In this document: in pieces, positions 13,386 through 62,471 of the stretch
How the letters are laid out: each line of letters starts with the position of its first letter
How positions within the stretch are numbered: position 1 is the stretch's first letter
Source: Eledone cirrhosa
Lineage: Eukaryota
Direction of reading: 5' to 3'
NCBI GenBank assembly: GCA_964016885.1
Contig: OZ024749.1
Span: forward strand, 35,154,001-35,218,000
Length of the DNA stretch: 64,000 nt
Translations under genes and position numbers: made by a program
The notes under the pieces: model-generated
Told to the model about the DNA's origin: nothing
The model's input: the letters and a program-made list of their open reading frames with translations, nothing else
Database searches by the model: none

Positions 13386-13679
13386 ATATATAGGATGTAC
13401 TTATGGCTGTATTATTCATAAATCTGATCTGGCTTGCATAGACTGGGATTCTGTCAATTTTCTTCAGCAGTCTGAAAAACCTAAACATTTGGCCATTGGT
13501 TAACACAAACTCACCCCTAAAGGCTTAGGGTCCTGGTCATTAATTAATACAGCTTTGGGTTTTAGGCAATATGTTTTGCAATAGCTACCACCTCATAATT
13601 GACTATAGTTGTCTTTAGAGATCAATACACCAATAGTTCAATAGTTTAAGAAAAAGAAAACAGAGTTAAAATATCTGAC

Positions 13680-13974
13680 CTTTCAACTCTACTGAGTTAT
13701 TGATTGTGATTTTAGTGAGGCTGTTACAGGAACTTTTAGTGGCCAGGCTGCTTCTGATGTCAACCATGGAAGAATGGCGACTAGAGGGAGGGCAGTGCAT
13801 GTAATCAGGGTTGTTCTGCAGTAATTCCTGGATCTGATAGAGTTTGTGGGTGATGTCTTTACCCAGTAAATTATGGATGACAGTACCAAGGAATGGATGG
13901 TCATGGAGAAACCTTTGTATGGCTGCACAGTTCCAGGAGAGTAGGCTACAGTCTTCTGTGGCTACCAATGTGAC
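13680..13974 (-). CDS. BVES: Popeye domain protein, coding exon 3 (VTLVATEDCSLLSW...LLGKDITHKLY...ELK)
   Basis: Polypyrimidine tract plus cacag acceptor. Completes the FQ|VT motif and contains the conserved GKDITxKLY. Donor G|GTCAGA at 13680/13679, phase 1. 295 nt. Confidence 0.9.
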
Positions 13975-14019
13975 CTGTGAAGACAGAGAGAGATAGTGAA
14001 ACAGAGAGAGAGACAACTA

Positions 14020-46419: not shown

Positions 46420-46532
46420 TCATCATCACGGACGTGAAATGGTGATGATGATGATGATATATATCTATATATATATCTATGCATATATATATATATGCAT
46501 ATATATATATATATATGCATATATACATATAC

Positions 46533-47545
46533 AGAATACTAGCTCATTCCATTGCACAGATGGTTCTATAGAAATAGTGGACAGTTTCCGTTACCTGGGT
46601 GACCAAATCAGCAGTGGGGGAGGGTGCTCTGAAAGTACAGTAGCTAGAGTCAGAACTGGATGGAAAAAGTTCAGAGAGCTTATACCACTATTAGCCGCTA
46701 AAGGGTTCTCCCTAAAAATGAAAGGCAGGCTGTATGATGCCTGCATACGAACAGCAATGTTGCATGGCAGTGAGACCTGGGCATTGTGTGCAGAGGATAT
46801 ACGCAGACTGGAGAGGAATGAAGCTTAAATGCTCCGCTGGATGTGTAATAGTAATATACGTGAACGGCAAAGCATAAACGAACTAAGGGAAAAATTAGAA
46901 ATAAGAGGGATCAGATGTTGTTTACTCGAGAGAAGACTACGTTGGTATGGTCACGTGATGCGCATGAAAGATGACAGCTGTATAAAAAAGTGCAGGGCAA
47001 TAAAAATAGACGGTAGCCACGGAGTAGGCAGACCTAGAAAAACCTGGGACGACTTGATAAATTCCTACCTCACACACTTATACCTCTCCAAGACAATGTC
47101 AATGGACCGAGATCTTTGGCGCTACACAGTAATAGAGAAGACCCGCCTTACCTAAGTACAAAGTGAAACCTATTACAGTCAGTAGGCACCTCTAACAAAA
47201 TACACCCCCGTCCCACCACCCCCACTCCATCCACACCACCCCTTTCAATGTAAAGTTATGTTGGTACCACAACATCCAGCCCGAAACAAATGAGGTCGTG
47301 TAGGTGTCACGACAAAAAAAAACACACAGTCCACGCTGTAATGTGGCCATGTAGGTAACATGGTAAAAACCTCCCAGTTCCACACTGTAAATGTGGTTGG
47401 TGTTAGGAAGGGCATCCAGCTGTAGAAAACCCGCCAGACAGTCCTATGCGACAACCACTCTTGCCTCAAGTGGGAAAACTCCCGTCCAAACCCATGCAAG
47501 CGTGGAATATGGATGTTAAACGATGATGATGATGACGATGATGAT
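46533..47545 (+). mobile_element. 5'-truncated copy of the same RTE LINE family
   Basis: Nearly identical to 59982-61000. A premature TAA at 46826-46828 replaces TGC. (GAT)n tail and TA flanks. Confidence 0.92.
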
Positions 47546-47851
47546 ACATATATATATATACATATATATATATATATGCATATATACATATACATATATA
47601 TATATATATACATATATATATACATATATTTTAGGAGACATGGTAAAAAGGATCCCACACTGTAAATGTGGTTGGTGTTAGGAAGGGCATCTAGCCATAG
47701 AAAACCAGCCAGATACAGTTCTATATGAGAGAGGTACAGTCACCTGTTCAATCTTGCCTAGAGTGGGACAATCCCATCTAACCCACACTAGCGTGGAAGA
47801 TGGATGTTAAACAATGATGATGATGATGATATATGCATATATATATATGCA

Positions 47852-55046: not shown

Positions 55047-55131
55047 GGTCTGACGAGCTTTTGATTCCAGAGTTGGGCCAGATCAATACAGATCAAACCA
55101 TGAGCTGATCAATAGCGTAACACGCGTCACC
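55047..55131 (+). ncRNA. Type I hammerhead ribozyme, probably inactivated (GAAA->GTAA)
   Basis: GGT-CTGACGA-GCTtTTGAT...ATCAAtAGC-GTAA-CACGC-GTC/ACC, followed by AATAAA and (TA)n. Confidence 0.65.
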
Positions 55132-55213
55132 AATCAATAAATGTAATGAAGGCTTAACCAATTGTCCTTGTATTATATATATATATATATCATCCTCCTC
55201 CTCTTCATCAGAG

Positions 55214-56110
55214 AAGGAGCTAGTATCCTGTGGGCACTTGCTACTTATTACACCCGAGCATCGGCCACATATAAAATCTATGTTCTTAGATAGTTTACCT
55301 GTGATCCCACTACATCTTTTATGTACCCATAGTTTGCATTTGGGACATAAAATGGAATTTCTACCTACTCCTTTCCTACACACTGAGCATGGCCATTTCC
55401 CAGAGGGCACCTGTGCCCTATTTTCCTTTCTACAAACTAGAACTTTAGTCTTAGACAAGTTAACTTTAAGGCCTTTTGATTCTAGGCCATGCTTCCATGT
55501 TTGGAATGTCTTCTCTAGTTCAGCCATAGATTCAGCTATGAGAGTTAGATCATCTGCGTATAGGAGTTCCCATGGACAGCCGGTCTTAAACTCCTCTGTT
55601 ATAACCTGAAAGGCAATAATAAATAGGAGAGGGCTAAGGACAGAGCCTTGATCAACACCAACTTTTACACTAAATTCTTCATTACATTCATTGTTAATTC
55701 TAACGTTACTGACTGTTTCTTTATACATGGCTTGTATAGCTCTCAAGCCATTCATCTACACCTAGTTTTCTAAGAGCCCACCAGATAATGGAGTGGGGGA
55801 CTCTATCAAAGGCTTTCTCCAGGTCTACAAAAGCTAAGTAGAGGGGTTTGCTTTTAGCTAGGTACTTCTCCTGTAGTTGTCGTACAAGGATAAGAGCGTC
55901 TGTGGTATTTTTACCTGACACAGACCCAAACTGTATTTCATCTAGATCAATTCGCTCTTTGATTAGTTGCGACCTTCATGACCTGGTCAACTAACTTAAT
56001 GCCTCTATAGTTTCCCCTATCTAGAGCATCCCCTTTACCCTTGTAGCAGTTAATGATGATGCTGCTACACCAGTCTTTTGGTATGACCCCATTCTCTATT
56101 ACTTGGTTTA
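55214..56110 (-). mobile_element. Internal RT fragment of the same RTE LINE family (frameshifted)
   Basis: [45 protein letters not shown] and the Cys-rich insert. Confidence 0.9.
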
Positions 56111-57560: not shown

Positions 57561-57630
57561 TATTTTATCTGATGAGGACACAATTTTTGTCCCAGGATGA
57601 TGTTGTTTTCGAAATGCGCATAATAAAATA
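57561..57630 (+). ncRNA. Type I hammerhead ribozyme
   Basis: TATTTTAT-CTGATGA-GGAcACAAT...GTTGTtTTC-GAAA-TGCGCA-TA/ATAAAATA. Perfect 8-bp stem I and palindromic stem III (ATGCGCAT). AUA cleavage after 57622. (TA)n starts ~45 nt downstream. Confidence 0.75.
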
Positions 57631-57694
57631 TACGGAACTTTTTTAACCATCTTTTAATTTCTTCTTTATATATATATGTATACATATATATACG

Positions 57695-57789
<95 letters not shown>

Positions 57790-57808
57790 ATATATATATA
57801 TATATATG

Positions 57809-57843
<35 letters not shown>

Positions 57844-57844
57844 G

Positions 57845-58034
<190 letters not shown>

Positions 58035-58053
58035 CATATATATATATTTATAC

Positions 58054-58144
<91 letters not shown>

Positions 58145-58147
58145 CAC

Positions 58148-58178
<31 letters not shown>

Positions 58179-58263
58179 AAAATTGAGATGAGCAGAACAA
58201 ACAAACATTAAACAATCCTTTAAATAAATTAAAAAATGATTTAAATATCTAGCTGTTCGTAAT

Positions 58264-58343
58264 GCTATTACCGGCGGTTTCACTTTACAAAAGATTAGAA
58301 ATTCAGAGAATTTCTAACGGAAAAGTAAAGTTCATCAGATAGC
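58264..58343 (-). ncRNA. Type I hammerhead ribozyme, inverted copy of the 58809 motif
   Basis: Same motif on the minus strand, with a fully Watson-Crick stem I (GCTAT/ATAGC). Cleavage between 58269 and 58268. Confidence 0.8.
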
Positions 58344-58808
58344 TATTTCCATCCTATAGACTAAGTCCCACAGTCTGCAAATATAATGCCAACTACCAGC
58401 TCGTATGAGTTATGGCCGTTAAAGTGACCCACACGTGAACTGGCCGCTAGTGAAAGCGGGAATATTACAGACGTGCTGATGGCTTTGCTCCTAAAAAAAT
58501 AGCAGTATCTCAAATTAGTACCATAGAACAACAATTATATTATAGACACCCTATATATGTCTATGGGTACTTAGTACTCAGATAGATATTGACCTCATTT
58601 TATATATTCTCCAATCTATGTAGAGAAAAAATTTGTTGTTGCTTACTGCTATTTTTTTAGCAGCAAAGCCATCAACACGTCTGTAATATTCCCGCTTTCA
58701 CTAGCGGCCAGTTCACGTGTGGGTCACTTTAATGGCCATAACTCATACGAGCTGGTAGTTGGCATTATATTTGCAGACCGTGGGACTTAGTCCTATAGGA
58801 TGGAAATA

Positions 58809-58888
58809 GTTATCTGATGAACTTTACTTTTCCGTTAGAAATTCTCTGAATTTCTAATCTTTTGTAAAGTGAAACCGCCGGTAATAGC
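58809..58888 (+). ncRNA. Type I hammerhead ribozyme, intact core
   Basis: GTTAT-CTGATGA-ACTTTAC...(TTAGAAATT/AATTTCTAA)...GTAAAGT-GAAA-CCGCCGG-TA/ATAGC. Cleavage after 58883. Confidence 0.8.
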
Positions 58889-59074
58889 ATTACGAACAGG
58901 TAGATATTTAAATCATTTTTTAATTTATTTAAAGGATTGTTTAATGTTTGTTTGTTCTGCTCATCTCAATTTTTATAGTTCTGGTATCTCAAATTAGTAC
59001 CAAAGAACAACAATTATATTATAGACACCCTATATATCTCTATGGGTACTTAGTACTCAGAGAGATATTTACCT

Positions 59075-59139
<65 letters not shown>

Positions 59140-59162
59140 TATGTATATATATATATGTATAC

Positions 59163-59235
<73 letters not shown>

Positions 59236-59239
59236 TATG

Positions 59240-59293
<54 letters not shown>

Positions 59294-59297
59294 TATG

Positions 59298-59343
<46 letters not shown>

Positions 59344-59367
59344 CATATATATACATATATATATATG

Positions 59368-59416
<49 letters not shown>

Positions 59417-59464
59417 GTTTATATATATATATGTTTATATATATATGTATATTTATATGTATAT

Positions 59465-59911
59465 AGTTTAGCGAGGTTTTTTATATGAAATCGTGTGTCG
59501 AAACAGATATTGTTATATTTGGGGAGGGTCATATTTGCGTAATATTGCCAGAATTAATAACAGAACACACTCACTGTTTGGTTGGTTTTCGCTTCTCGCT
59601 GTCTGAATAAAAAATGGCGTAGACATACAACACAACAGGAGGAACAATGAATATAACACCACTGATGATGTTGCAGATGTGCAACGAAAGATTTATGTAA
59701 ATTATGTAAACTATATATATGTGTTTGTGTCTATATTGTATCTGTATTATTTTTGACCGCCGGTCAGTCAATGGCAACATTGAGGACCGAGTAAGTTAGA
59801 TCGCAGATATAAAAGACAGCGAGAAGCGAAAACCAACCAAACAGTGAGTGTGTTCTGTTATTAATTCTGGCAATATTACGCAAATATGACCCTCCCCAAA
59901 TATAACAATAT
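59465..59911. mobile_element. Inverted-repeat element (98-bp arms) between TA arrays; MITE or Penelope-like inversion product
   Basis: 59507-59604 and 59814-59911 are reverse complements around a 209-nt spacer, which contains CTGATGA-t-GTTGCA-gatg-TGCAAC-GAAA. Confidence 0.65.
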
Positions 59912-59929
59912 ATGTATATATATATAGAC

Positions 59930-59981
<52 letters not shown>

Positions 59982-59983
<2 letters not shown>

Positions 59984-61473
59984 CATCATCATCATCATCA
60001 TCATCATCGTTTAACGTCCATGTTCCACGCTTGCATGGGTTTGGACGGGAGTTTTCCCACTTGAGGCAAGAGTGGTTGTCTTGCTCGCATAGGACTGTCT
60101 GGCGGGTTTTCTACAGCTGGATGCCCTTCCTAACACCAACCACATTTACAGTGTGGGACTGGGAGGTTTTTACCGTGTTGCCTACACGGCCACATTACAG
60201 CATGGACTGTGTGTTTTTTTTTTGTCGTGACACCTACACGATCTCATTTGTTTCGGCCTGGATGTTGTGGCACCAACATAATTTTACATTGAAAGGGGCA
60301 GTGTTGATGAGGTGGGGGTGGTGGGACGGGGGTGTATTTTGTTAGAGATGCCTACTGACTGTAGTAGGTTTTACTTTGTATTTAGGTAAGGCGGGTCTTC
60401 TCTATTACTGAGTGCCGCCAAAGATCTCGGTCCAGTGACATTGTCTTGGAGAGGTGTAAGTGTGTGAGGTCGGAGTTTATCAGGTCGTCCCAGGTTTTTC
60501 TGGGTCTGCCTACCCCGTGGCTACCGTCTATCTTTATTGCCCTGCACTTTTTTATACAGCTGTCGTCTTTCATGCGCATTATGTGACCATACCAACGTAG
60601 CCTTCTCTCGAGTAAACAACATCTGATCCCTCTTATTTCTAATTTTTCCCTTAGTTCGTTTATGCTTTGCCGTTCGCGTATATTACTATTACACATCCAG
60701 CGGAGCATGCAAGCTTCGTTCCTCTCTAGTCTGCGTATATCCTCTGCACACAATGCCCAGGTCTCACTGCCATGCAACATTGCTGTTCGTATGCAGGCAT
60801 CATACAGCCTGCCTTTCATTTTTAGGGAGAACCCTTTAGCGGCTAATAGTGGTATAAGCTCTCTGAACTTTTTCCATCCAGTTCTGACTCTAGCTACTGT
60901 ACTTTCAGAGCACCCTCCCCCACTGCTGATTTTGTCACCCAGGTAACGGAAACTGTCCACTATTTCTATAGAACCCTCTGCGCAATTGAAAGAGCTAGTA
61001 TTTTGTGGGCACTTGCTGCTACTTATTGCACCAGAGAACCGGCCACATATAAAATCTATGTTCTTAGTTAGCTTACCTATGATCCCACTACATCTTTTAT
61101 GCACCCATACTTTGCATTTGGGACATAAAATGGAGTTTCTACCTACGCCTTTCCTACACACTGAGCATGGCCATTTCCCAGAAGGGACTGGTGCCTTATT
61201 TTCTTTCCTACAAACTAGAACTTTAGTCTTAGCCAGGTTAATTTTAAGGCCTTTTGATTCTAAGCCGTGCTTCCATGTTTGGAATTTCTTCTCTAGCTCG
61301 GCCATTGATTCAGCTATGAGCGTTAGATCATCTGCGTATAGGAGTTCCCATGGGCAGCCGGTCTTGAACTCCACTGTTATAGCCTGAAGGGCAATAATAA
61401 ATAGTAGGGGGCTAAGAACAGAGCCCTGATGAACACCAACTTTTACGCTAAACTCTTCACTATATTCGTTGTT
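59982..61473 (-). mobile_element. 5'-truncated RTE-clade LINE (RT C-terminal half, Cys-rich insert, C-terminal domain, 3'UTR, (GAT)n tail)
   Basis: Open frame with [37 protein letters not shown]. Ends in ggacgttaaacgatgatgat. (TA)n on both sides. Confidence 0.92.
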
Positions 61474-61619: not shown

Positions 61620-62471
61620 ATATGAAATACGTCCCTTCACGCACAAGGCACCAAGGTACGCATGTATTGTCCAACCAAGTGCCAATGTGGTTCAATGGCG
61701 GGTTAATAAATTAACGAGCCAGAACAAATATAAACAAGGTTTAGTAAATAATGAAAAAGTTTCAAAATAAATTTTAAAAAATTGACTTTACCTACTATAG
61801 TTACCTTTACCGATCGGTTTCGAATCCCAAAAATAAAACGGAGACCATATGGCCTTCGTTGCAAAGAGAGATTCTCGTCAGAAGGTTCTTTTCATTCAAA
61901 GAATATAAAATTCCTGAATTTAAATCACAAACTAGCGCTATCAAAAACTGTTCCTGGGATGAGAGTGGATGATGTAGAACAGGTTTATCAAGGGCCGTAG
62001 CAAAGATAGAGGCAAAAGGAGGTAGGTCAAACTAGCCACCGCTGTTGCCAGCAGCAGTCGGAATGACCCGGTTTGTTCTCAACGTTAGTGGAGGTAGTAG
62101 TAATATGAAATACGTCCCTTCACGCACAAGGCGCCAAGGTACGCATGTATTGTCCAACCAAGTGCCAATGTGGTTCAATGGCGGGTTAATAAATTAACGA
62201 GCCAGAACAAATATAAACAAGGTTTAGTAAATAATGAAAAAGTTTCAAAATAAATTTTAAAAAATTGACTTTACCTACTATAGTTACCTTTACCGATCGG
62301 TTTCGAATCCCAAAAATAAAACGGAGACCATACGGCCTTCGTTGCAAAGAGAGATTCTCGTTTTATTTTTGGGATTCGAAACCGATCGGTAAAGGTAACT
62401 ATAGTAGGTAAAGTCAATTTTTTAAAATTTATTTTGAAACTTTTTCATTATTTACTAAACCTTGTTTATAT
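61620..62471 (-). mobile_element. Non-autonomous Penelope-like/retrozyme-like element, family B (partial tandem, 483-nt unit, + terminal inversion)
   Basis: 61620-61878 is directly repeated at 62103-62361 (offset 483). 62359-62471 is the reverse complement of 62211-62323. Contains a hammerhead and has (TA)n on both sides. Confidence 0.72.
61803..61886 (-). ncRNA. Type I hammerhead ribozyme, intact core
   Basis: Minus strand reads ACCTT-CTGACGA-GAATC...GATTC-GAAA-CCGATCGG-TA/AAGGT. Stem I 5 bp, stem II 5 bp, palindromic stem III (ACCGATCGGT). GUA cleavage between 61808 and 61807. Confidence 0.85.

What the first reader, a model, noticed from the sequence alone, without database searches (positions are those of the whole stretch)
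58175..59084. Family A: ~333-bp inverted repeat placing hammerheads on both strands, plus a 479-nt partial tandem
Arms 58175-58507 and 58644-58977 form a long fold-back, and a ~100-nt block repeats directly at offset 479. This is the same architecture and almost the same unit length as family B, with no evident sequence similarity. Stem I differs between arms (GCTAT vs GTTAT against ATAGC) yet stays paired through G-U. A transcript in either direction meets a ribozyme and can also form >300 bp of dsRNA, a potential ADAR or Dicer substrate competing with ribozyme folding.
Basis: partly seen in the sequence, partly recalled or inferred. Interest (0 to 1): 0.78.

Follow-up and report, generated by a model that had tools for sequence, protein, structure and literature searches.

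The report
Two-armed hammerhead retrozyme, Penelope-style insertion
This is one copy of an abundant non-coding repeat that carries a predicted self-cutting RNA motif and sits in a TA microsatellite as two back-to-back arms, a layout that likely records how a Penelope-type jumping-gene enzyme copied it into the genome, not a purpose-built two-way RNA switch.

Summary
The element is 1.2 copies of a 479-nt non-coding unit plus an inverted, 5'-truncated copy, joined at a 3-nt microhomology, between (TA)n tracts. The two outer ends lie about 109 nt apart in the unit, so the repeats are not terminal and it is not a MITE. Public reads show many diverged copies, other copies ending at 58977 in TA, and one different inversion joint. 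This is the published Penelope-like (PLE) insertion layout on a retrozyme-type unit. The G-U in stem I is a private mutation, not covariation. Read-through RNA is predicted to bury both ribozymes (>100 kcal/mol), and neither strand has two, so this copy is probably dead. Best mechanism: a borrowed PLE enzyme primed from both ends of a break at two fixed RNA sites (inferred). The scan has already noted this layout in other families of this genome; a sequence look-up found no note on this family. Cleavage, expression and the partner enzyme are untested.

The parts
57667..58178 (.). (TA)n tract, left flank and likely insertion target
   Evidence: TRF period 2, 256 copies
58175..58507 (-). Left arm: inverted, 5'-truncated copy (unit positions 140-473); its 3' end (end 1) faces outward into the TA tract
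   Evidence: reverse complement of 58644-58977, 6 mismatches + 1 gap
58264..58343 (-). Type I hammerhead motif with the family-majority stem I (G-C); predicted cut 3' of 58269
   Evidence: descriptor; stems I and II form in the MFE fold; allele
58505..58507 (.). 3-nt microhomology at the head-to-head junction of the two arms
   Evidence: junction sequences
58505..59086 (+). Right arm: 582 nt = 1.21 copies of the 479-nt unit (58505-58983, then 58984-59086 repeating 58505-58607)
58809..58888 (+). Type I hammerhead motif: stem I 5 bp (one G-U), core 58814-58820 and 58871-58874, stem II 50 nt (7 bp plus an 11-bp inner hairpin, A-U closing pair), near-palindromic stem III, predicted cut after 58883
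58973..58977 (+). End 1: U-rich/UA site 90-94 nt 3' of the cut; outer end of the left arm and of other copies
   Evidence: loose ends into TA at 58977 in 6 contigs of X1 and at 58964 in 14 reads of X7
58978..59086 (+). 'Tail': about 109 nt between the two outer ends, present only on the right arm
   Evidence: 108 nt in family B
59078..59086 (+). End 2: U-rich/UA site 195-203 nt 3' of the cut; outer end of the right arm
   Evidence: indirect support from 2 diverged contigs running to 59090
59080..59465 (.). (TA)n tract, right flank

Best explanation
The element is 1.2 copies of a non-coding 479-nt hammerhead-motif unit plus an inverted, truncated copy, set in a TA microsatellite, and it was likely written there by a borrowed Penelope-like (RT + GIY-YIG) enzyme that would have extended both ends of a cut on the unit's RNA. 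Shown: layout, polarity (both arms point the RNA 3' end outward), two offset U/UA-rich ends, a 3-nt central microhomology, a multi-copy family, and end 1 shared with other copies. Inferred: (1) the enzyme cut both strands in (TA)n; (2) each 3'-OH paired with a short UA stretch and primed cDNA, one at end 1 (333 nt copied), one at end 2 (582 nt copied); (3) the template was longer than one unit or closed (circle, uncleaved multimer or template jump), because the long arm crosses the predicted cut site without a scar and passes its own start; (4) the two cDNA 3' ends annealed over 3 nt and were filled in. The fold-back and the ribozyme on each strand are by-products. This copy is likely inert: one ribozyme per strand, both predicted masked in read-through RNA, and about 2-4% decay between duplicated parts.
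For: Layout equals the described PLE footprint: partial tandem, adjacent inverted 5'-truncated copy, one-sided tail, (TA)n bias (PMC8557442 passages; PMC8969392 passage). A purified PLE protein cuts and extends both strands, prefers AT-rich DNA and starts at two internal RNA sites that bound the tail (PMC11167929 parts 1-2). Other copies stop at end 1 and run into TA (6 contigs; 14 reads nearby), and one contig has a different inversion joint, 58640/58758. Family B repeats the geometry (tail 108 nt, ends 76 and 184 nt from the cut, 3-nt microhomology) without significant homology. In neighbouring element D each arm holds sequence the other lacks, so neither arm was copied from the other. Both arms of A share alleles that are rare in the reads (58893 C against T in 87 of 90 and 52 of 56 reads), pointing to one source. 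Unit: no ORF over 26 aa, 33.6% GC, circular fold z -7.4 with 0 of 60 shuffles as stable. Stem III self-pairs as a dimer at -10.2 kcal/mol and not as an isolated hairpin, as described for PLE and retrozyme hammerheads (PMC4209133).
Against: No autonomous PLE was found: 0 of 100 window ORFs hit GIY-YIG and no genome is held. In A and B the short arm lies wholly within the long arm, so fold-back copying fits them equally well. The element D argument is one case, and D has no complete hammerhead. End 2 has only indirect support in other copies. The tail (about 109 nt) is longer than the published 30-40 bp. Core conservation is inconclusive: 0 of 39 shown variant positions fall in 25 core, stem III and stem I positions, 2.0 expected, P=0.12, and 94 rows were not shown. 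Stem II closes with A-U rather than the conserved G-C (PMC4209133), and Rfam does not call it. 8 of 9 predicted frog retrozyme dimers did not cleave in vitro (10.64898/2026.07.22.740005), so a motif does not prove activity. The runs may be from another species than the window, which weakens the rare-allele argument.
Confidence: 0.58

Rival explanations
1. Same element class and same PLE enzyme, but one priming event: cDNA starts at end 2, its 3' end folds back on itself over the 3-nt microhomology, DNA-templated synthesis makes the inverted arm, and an endonuclease nick at end 1 resolves it into the TA flank.
For: The left arm is nested in the right arm in A and B; both arms share rare alleles; PMC8557442 attributes the tail to EN-mediated resolution.
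Against: Element D has non-nested arms; a PLE protein extends both strands and starts at both tail ends in vitro; end 1 is a U/UA site that suits priming by a TA end.
Confidence: 0.25
2. A DNA-level rearrangement: a piece of a hammerhead satellite or pLTR remnant was inverted and duplicated by replication fold-back or repair next to unstable TA tracts, with no RNA step.
For: The microhomology junction and long TA tracts are compatible; the retrozyme preprint allows local DNA amplification.
Against: Three unrelated units within 5 kb (A, B, D) show the same outward polarity and offset ends; end 1 recurs in other copies.
Confidence: 0.07
3. One reading: a maintained two-way RNA device in which ribozyme cleavage competes with dsRNA formation (ADAR or Dicer substrate).
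For: The hairpin is real in silico (MFE about -620 kcal/mol); both motifs have intact cores; transcripts starting inside the element leave the ribozyme within 2-5 kcal/mol of folding.
Against: The hairpin wins by over 100 kcal/mol and the antisense arm is made first; the G-U is private and destabilising; another copy has a different joint and family B lacks the second ribozyme; no A-to-G excess between arms.
Confidence: 0.06
4. A DNA MITE with long TIRs and a TA target duplication.
For: Long inverted repeats; TA context.
Against: The two termini are not inverted copies of each other; the right end extends about 109 nt beyond the arm; internal partial tandem; variable centre joint.
Confidence: 0.02

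Closest known systems
Metazoan non-LTR retrozymes (PMC7229834: passages and parts 2-3 of 6 read; PMC7761336: passages; bioRxiv 10.64898/2026.07.22.740005: parts 1-3 of 5 read)
   Same: Non-coding, low-GC, highly self-paired unit of a few hundred nt with one type I hammerhead; multi-copy; PLEs proposed as the mobilising partner.
   Different: Unit is 479 nt (150-450 bp in PMC7229834; 51-972 bp in the preprint). This copy has only 1.2 units and one hammerhead per strand, so it fails the preprint's 'active' definition. Stem II is 50 nt. The word 'inverted' does not occur in the main text of PMC7229834, and I saw no two-armed retrozyme insertions in the parts of the preprint I read. Supplements were not read.
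EN+ Penelope-like elements: Penelope/Poseidon, Neptune, Naiad (PMC8557442 passages; PMC11167929 parts 1-2 of 4; PMC8969392 passages)
   Same: Partial tandem, adjacent inverted 5'-truncated copy, one-sided tail, (TA)n target, hammerhead upstream of two ends.
   Different: No RT or GIY-YIG ORF; the unit closes on itself after 479 nt; tail about 109 nt against 30-40 bp; no link to a specific clade could be tested. Naiads lack canonical hammerheads, so a Neptune- or Penelope-type partner is likelier (inference).
PLE-associated minimal and palindromic hammerheads (PMC4209133, parts 1-2 of 4 read)
   Same: Short stem I (5 bp), long stem II (7 bp), small palindromic stem III suited to dimer cleavage. 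That paper already reports pairs of motifs 100-700 bp apart on opposite strands in Schistosoma mansoni and relates the dispersed motifs to truncated PLEs.
   Different: No bulged base before stem II, A-U instead of G-C closing pair, an extra 11-bp hairpin in loop II.

Membership tests
Non-LTR retrozyme | Type I hammerhead in the unit | tested here: met
   Descriptor hit, 0 of 30 strict shuffle hits; not recognised by Rfam
Non-LTR retrozyme | Short head-to-tail unit, multi-copy | tested here: met
   479-nt period, 1.21 units; 513 contigs and 310 and 246 reads laid, most under 99% alike
Non-LTR retrozyme | At least two consecutive hammerhead units on one strand ('active' copy) | tested here: not met
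   One motif per strand at this locus; true multimers elsewhere were not shown
Non-LTR retrozyme | No protein coding, GC below 50%, strongly self-paired | tested here: met
   Longest internal ATG ORF 26 aa; GC 0.336; circular fold z -7.4, beyond 9 of 10 control stretches
Non-LTR retrozyme | Hammerhead core conserved across copies | tested here: inconclusive
   0 of 39 shown variant positions in 25 core and stem positions, P=0.12; 94 rows hidden. One contig of another organism keeps GAAA, the palindrome (central base changed) and the cut site
Non-LTR retrozyme | Self-cleavage and circular RNA accumulation | not testable with these tools
   Needs cleavage assay and northern or RT-PCR
Non-LTR retrozyme | No PBS/PPT/LTR | not tested
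   No tRNA-complementarity search was run
Penelope-like element (autonomous) | RT plus GIY-YIG ORF | tested here: not met
   No ORF in the element; 0 of 100 window ORFs with GIY-YIG
PLE insertion footprint | Partial tandem plus adjacent inverted 5'-truncated copy | tested here: met
   against PMC8557442
PLE insertion footprint | One-sided tail (30-40 bp) between two fixed ends | tested here: inconclusive
   One-sided extension present but about 109 nt; end 1 recurs in other copies, end 2 indirect
PLE insertion footprint | (TA)n target bias | tested here: met
   Both flanks; other copies end in TA
PLE insertion footprint | Homology to the pLTR of an autonomous PLE in the host | not testable with these tools
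   No genome held
MITE | Terminal inverted repeats at both ends | tested here: not met
   Termini differ; right end extends about 109 nt beyond the arm
MITE | Target-site duplication | tested here: inconclusive
   Not discernible inside (TA)n
MITE | Fixed internal structure among copies | tested here: not met
   Different inversion joint in another contig (one case)

The most novel reading that the evidence does not exclude
A dimeric PLE enzyme copies one closed 479-nt ribozyme RNA circle from both ends of a double-strand break at two fixed start sites about 109 nt apart, one cDNA rolling past its own start. The locus would then be a genomic record both of retrozyme mobilisation by PLEs and of how PLE inverted and tail structures arise, and unrelated units (A, B) would have converged on the same geometry.
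Probability: 0.33. Interest if true: 0.7.

Novelty: new member of a known kind. Interest (0 to 1): 0.42.

Why it matters
Retrozymes are proposed to borrow PLE enzymes, and how PLEs make their tandem, inverted and tail structures is stated as an open question (PMC8557442). A short non-coding unit that carries the full PLE footprint supports the first idea and offers a small defined RNA with two predicted start sites for an in vitro test of the second. It also warns that long fold-backs with ribozymes on both strands in such genomes are likely insertion by-products rather than regulatory devices. Both parent classes are published, so this is a useful substrate rather than a new kind of system.

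Tried and rejected
No whole genome is held, so no copy count, empty-site test or partner search was possible. No RNA holder was listed among the 9 runs; this says nothing on expression. A variant table focused on the ribozyme was not obtained, so core conservation and stem II covariation stay open. Metagenome pattern scan: 120 loci of an estimated 980; 0 of 120 align to family A or B and 1 of 120 passes a weak stem filter, read as chance. Rfam: 0 hits at gathering; the 79 hits at E<=5 include no hammerhead and are mostly microsatellite matches to miRNA models. A-B homology: a 63%/94-nt BLAST match at E 0.11 failed the shuffle test. The piled read ends at 58630-33, 58922-25 and 59012 in the RAD runs lie at AATT sites and were set aside as likely library cut sites. 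The 59080-to-58608 joints only show the unit continuing past end 2, as it does in the window, and are not evidence of multimers. Summed contig depth (602-53,599 against 7-17 for single listed contigs) peaks just upstream of end 1, which fits 3'-anchored truncation, but it is not a copy number and was not relied on. Divergence of the arms (7 of 334) and of the direct repeat (4 of 103) does not differ (Fisher P=0.30), so it cannot separate circle from multimer. Paper searches listed no paper devoted to two-armed retrozyme insertions or cephalopod retrozymes; the library lacks most subscription papers. A giant squid genome paper counts 235 hammerhead matches (PMC6962438, passages).

Full report
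OBSERVATION. The window is repeat-rich animal-type DNA: many (TA)n tracts, fragments of RT genes and two Popeye-domain exons. No whole genome is held. Earlier scan notes call the host octopus-like; I did not test that. 58175-58507 is the reverse complement of 58644-58977, with 6 mismatches in 333 pairs and one 1-nt gap. 58505-58607 repeats at 58984-59086 with 4 of 103 mismatches. A type I hammerhead descriptor (core motif recalled) hits 4 places in the window: both arms, family B at 61881 (-) and a further motif at 57569 (+). It hits once in 30 locally shuffled windows, and never under the strict version. Rfam does not call these motifs, possibly because stem II is 50 nt long.

ANATOMY. Numbering the 479-nt unit from 58505, the + strand carries positions 1-479 and then 1-103. 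The left arm is positions 140-473, inverted. The arms meet head to head over a 3-nt microhomology at 58505-58507. Both arms point the ribozyme-sense 3' end outward into TA tracts, and they stop at different sites. End 1 is 90-94 nt and end 2 is 195-203 nt downstream of the predicted cut; both are U-rich stretches ending in UA. The termini are therefore not inverted copies of each other, which rules out TIRs. The unit has no ATG ORF above 26 aa and is 33.6% GC. It folds as a circle at z -7.4 (0 of 60 shuffles). Its antisense gives -4.0 and family B -2.8. Ten control stretches range from +0.2 to -5.2, except one at -33 that is itself a fold-back.

RIBOZYME. Stem I has 5 bp, stem II 7 bp plus an 11-bp inner hairpin, and stem III is a 9-nt near-palindrome. 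The palindrome does not fold alone but pairs with itself at -10.2 kcal/mol; the motifs of B and C are perfect palindromes. This is the dimer-type design described for PLE and retrozyme hammerheads (PMC4209133, parts 1-2 read). That paper also reports pairs of motifs 100-700 bp apart on opposite strands in Schistosoma. Against strong activity: the stem II closing pair is A-U, not the conserved G-C, and the active fold is predicted to cost 1.8 (left) and 4.8 (right) kcal/mol in 101-nt fragments.

OTHER COPIES. 6 of 9 listed runs hold part of the stretch, none at half its words or more. I laid 4 of the 9 on one unit, 58608-59090: 513 contigs of X1, 310 and 246 reads of X7 and X8, and 3 contigs of X5. 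Most are under 99% alike, so this is a diverged multi-copy family, possibly seen in a related species. Of 130 loose-end rows 20 were shown. They include 6 X1 contigs ending at 58977 in TA repeat and 14 X7 reads turning into TA at 58964; 13 X8 reads at 58964 continue instead as a diverged unit. One contig has a different inversion joint (58640/58758). Two contigs with 12-13 differences run into the TA flank at end 2, which is indirect support only. At 58810 the reads carry C (31 of 31, 22 of 22), so the right arm's G-U is a private change. Both arms share C at 58893, where 87 of 90 and 52 of 56 reads have T, which points to one source for both arms unless it is a species difference. None of 39 shown variant positions lies in the 25 core, stem III and 3' stem I positions; 2.0 are expected, P=0.12, and 94 rows were hidden, so this is inconclusive. 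Two shown variants hit the base of stem II (58869, 58870), and whether they are compensated could not be seen. One X5 contig from another organism keeps GAAA, the palindrome with only its central base changed, and the cut site.

NEIGHBOURS. Family B has period 483, a 113-nt inverted arm, a 3-nt central microhomology, ends 76 and 184 nt from its cut (tail 108) and one complete hammerhead. It is not significantly similar to A. Element D (about 59466-59912), just right of A's flank, has arms that match over 98 nt without a mismatch. Its short arm carries about 40 extra outer bases and its long arm about 210 inner bases that the other arm lacks. Neither arm can be a copy of the other, which favours independent priming of both arms, but it is one case and D has only a partial hammerhead-like motif.

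THE dsRNA IDEA. The arms are head to head, so a read-through transcript in either direction makes the antisense arm first. Forcing the hammerhead costs 107-112 kcal/mol for full transcripts, 51-59 for starts midway through the antisense motif, and 2-5 for starts beyond it. Divergent transcripts from the centre are both sense. Each strand has one ribozyme, so this copy cannot release a unit-length monomer by double cleavage. At most 1 of 6 arm mismatches is A/G and 2 are CpG transitions, which looks like DNA decay. A read-through hairpin could still be an ADAR or Dicer substrate. That is untested, and it is unknown whether the locus is transcribed; it lies about 19 kb upstream of a minus-strand Popeye-domain exon.

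MECHANISM. PLE insertions are described as partial tandems with an adjacent inverted 5'-truncated copy, a one-sided 30-40 bp tail and a microsatellite bias (PMC8557442 passages; PMC8969392 passage). The one purified PLE protein cuts and extends both strands, prefers AT-rich DNA, is predicted to be a dimer and starts at two internal RNA sites that bound the tail; its hammerhead was not needed for insertion in vitro (PMC11167929, parts 1-2). I therefore infer that both ends of a cut in (TA)n primed on the unit RNA, at end 1 and end 2, and that the cDNAs joined over 3 nt. The long arm crosses the cut site and passes its own start, so the template was not a simple cleaved linear monomer; circle, uncleaved multimer and template jump cannot be separated here. 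My reading before the look-ups was fold-back; the in vitro paper, earlier scan notes and element D moved me to two-ended priming. I put class membership (retrozyme-type unit moved by a PLE) at about 0.83, split 0.58 two-ended priming and 0.25 fold-back. No partner enzyme was found: 0 of 100 window ORFs carry GIY-YIG, and 4 carry RVT_1, two of them with a PHD finger, which I take as LINE-like from recall.

COMPARISON AND NOVELTY. It works like a non-autonomous PLE and meets the sequence criteria of animal non-LTR retrozymes (PMC7229834; PMC7761336; 10.64898/2026.07.22.740005), except that this copy lacks two tandem ribozymes. Cleavage and circular RNA are untested. Six paper searches listed no paper devoted to two-armed retrozyme insertions; supplements were not read and may bear on this. 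The scan has noted the same layout in many other families of this genome (unchecked AI notes, not independent evidence). Sequence look-ups for A and D found no look-alike note. Verdict: a new family of a known class bearing a known footprint, interest 0.42. Its value is as a test substrate for an open mechanism.

Noticed in passing
window:57562-57667 (+): A third hammerhead motif (family C; stem I 8 bp, perfect palindromic stem III, weak stem II, predicted cut after 57622) followed by a T-rich run ending in the same TA tract that flanks family A; no second arm found.
   Followed up: partly
window:59466-59912: Element D: TA-flanked two-armed insertion, arms identical over 98 nt, about 40-nt one-sided tail, non-nested arms; hammerhead-like core and stem II at 59662 without stem I.
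   Followed up: partly
window:61620-62471 (-): Family B: 483-nt unit, 1.5 copies plus a 113-nt inverted arm that is 100% identical (younger than A), 3-nt microhomology, tail 108 nt, one complete hammerhead.
   Followed up: partly
window:38346-39017 (-) and 13669-14016 (-): Two exons with Popeye-domain (POPDC1-3) matches, profile 1-107 and 114-139, about 24 kb apart.
   Followed up: no
window:19580-34654: 15-kb strand-skewed satellite of a 20-nt unit, about 735 copies, between those two exons; 33-nt and 39/67-nt arrays lie next to it.
   Followed up: no
window:60385-61710 (-), 55096-55975 (-), 46531-47630 (+): Several related RT fragments, two with a PHD finger; 46531-47630 and 59907-61006 are 94% alike in inverted orientation.
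   Followed up: no
window:13018-13154: A 137-nt imperfect palindrome (76%) in the self-comparison.
   Followed up: no
window:58505 vs 58977: The long arm of family A stops 7 nt short of a second pass over end 1, so its duplicated part is almost exactly the tail; family B does not share this, so it may be chance.
   Followed up: no
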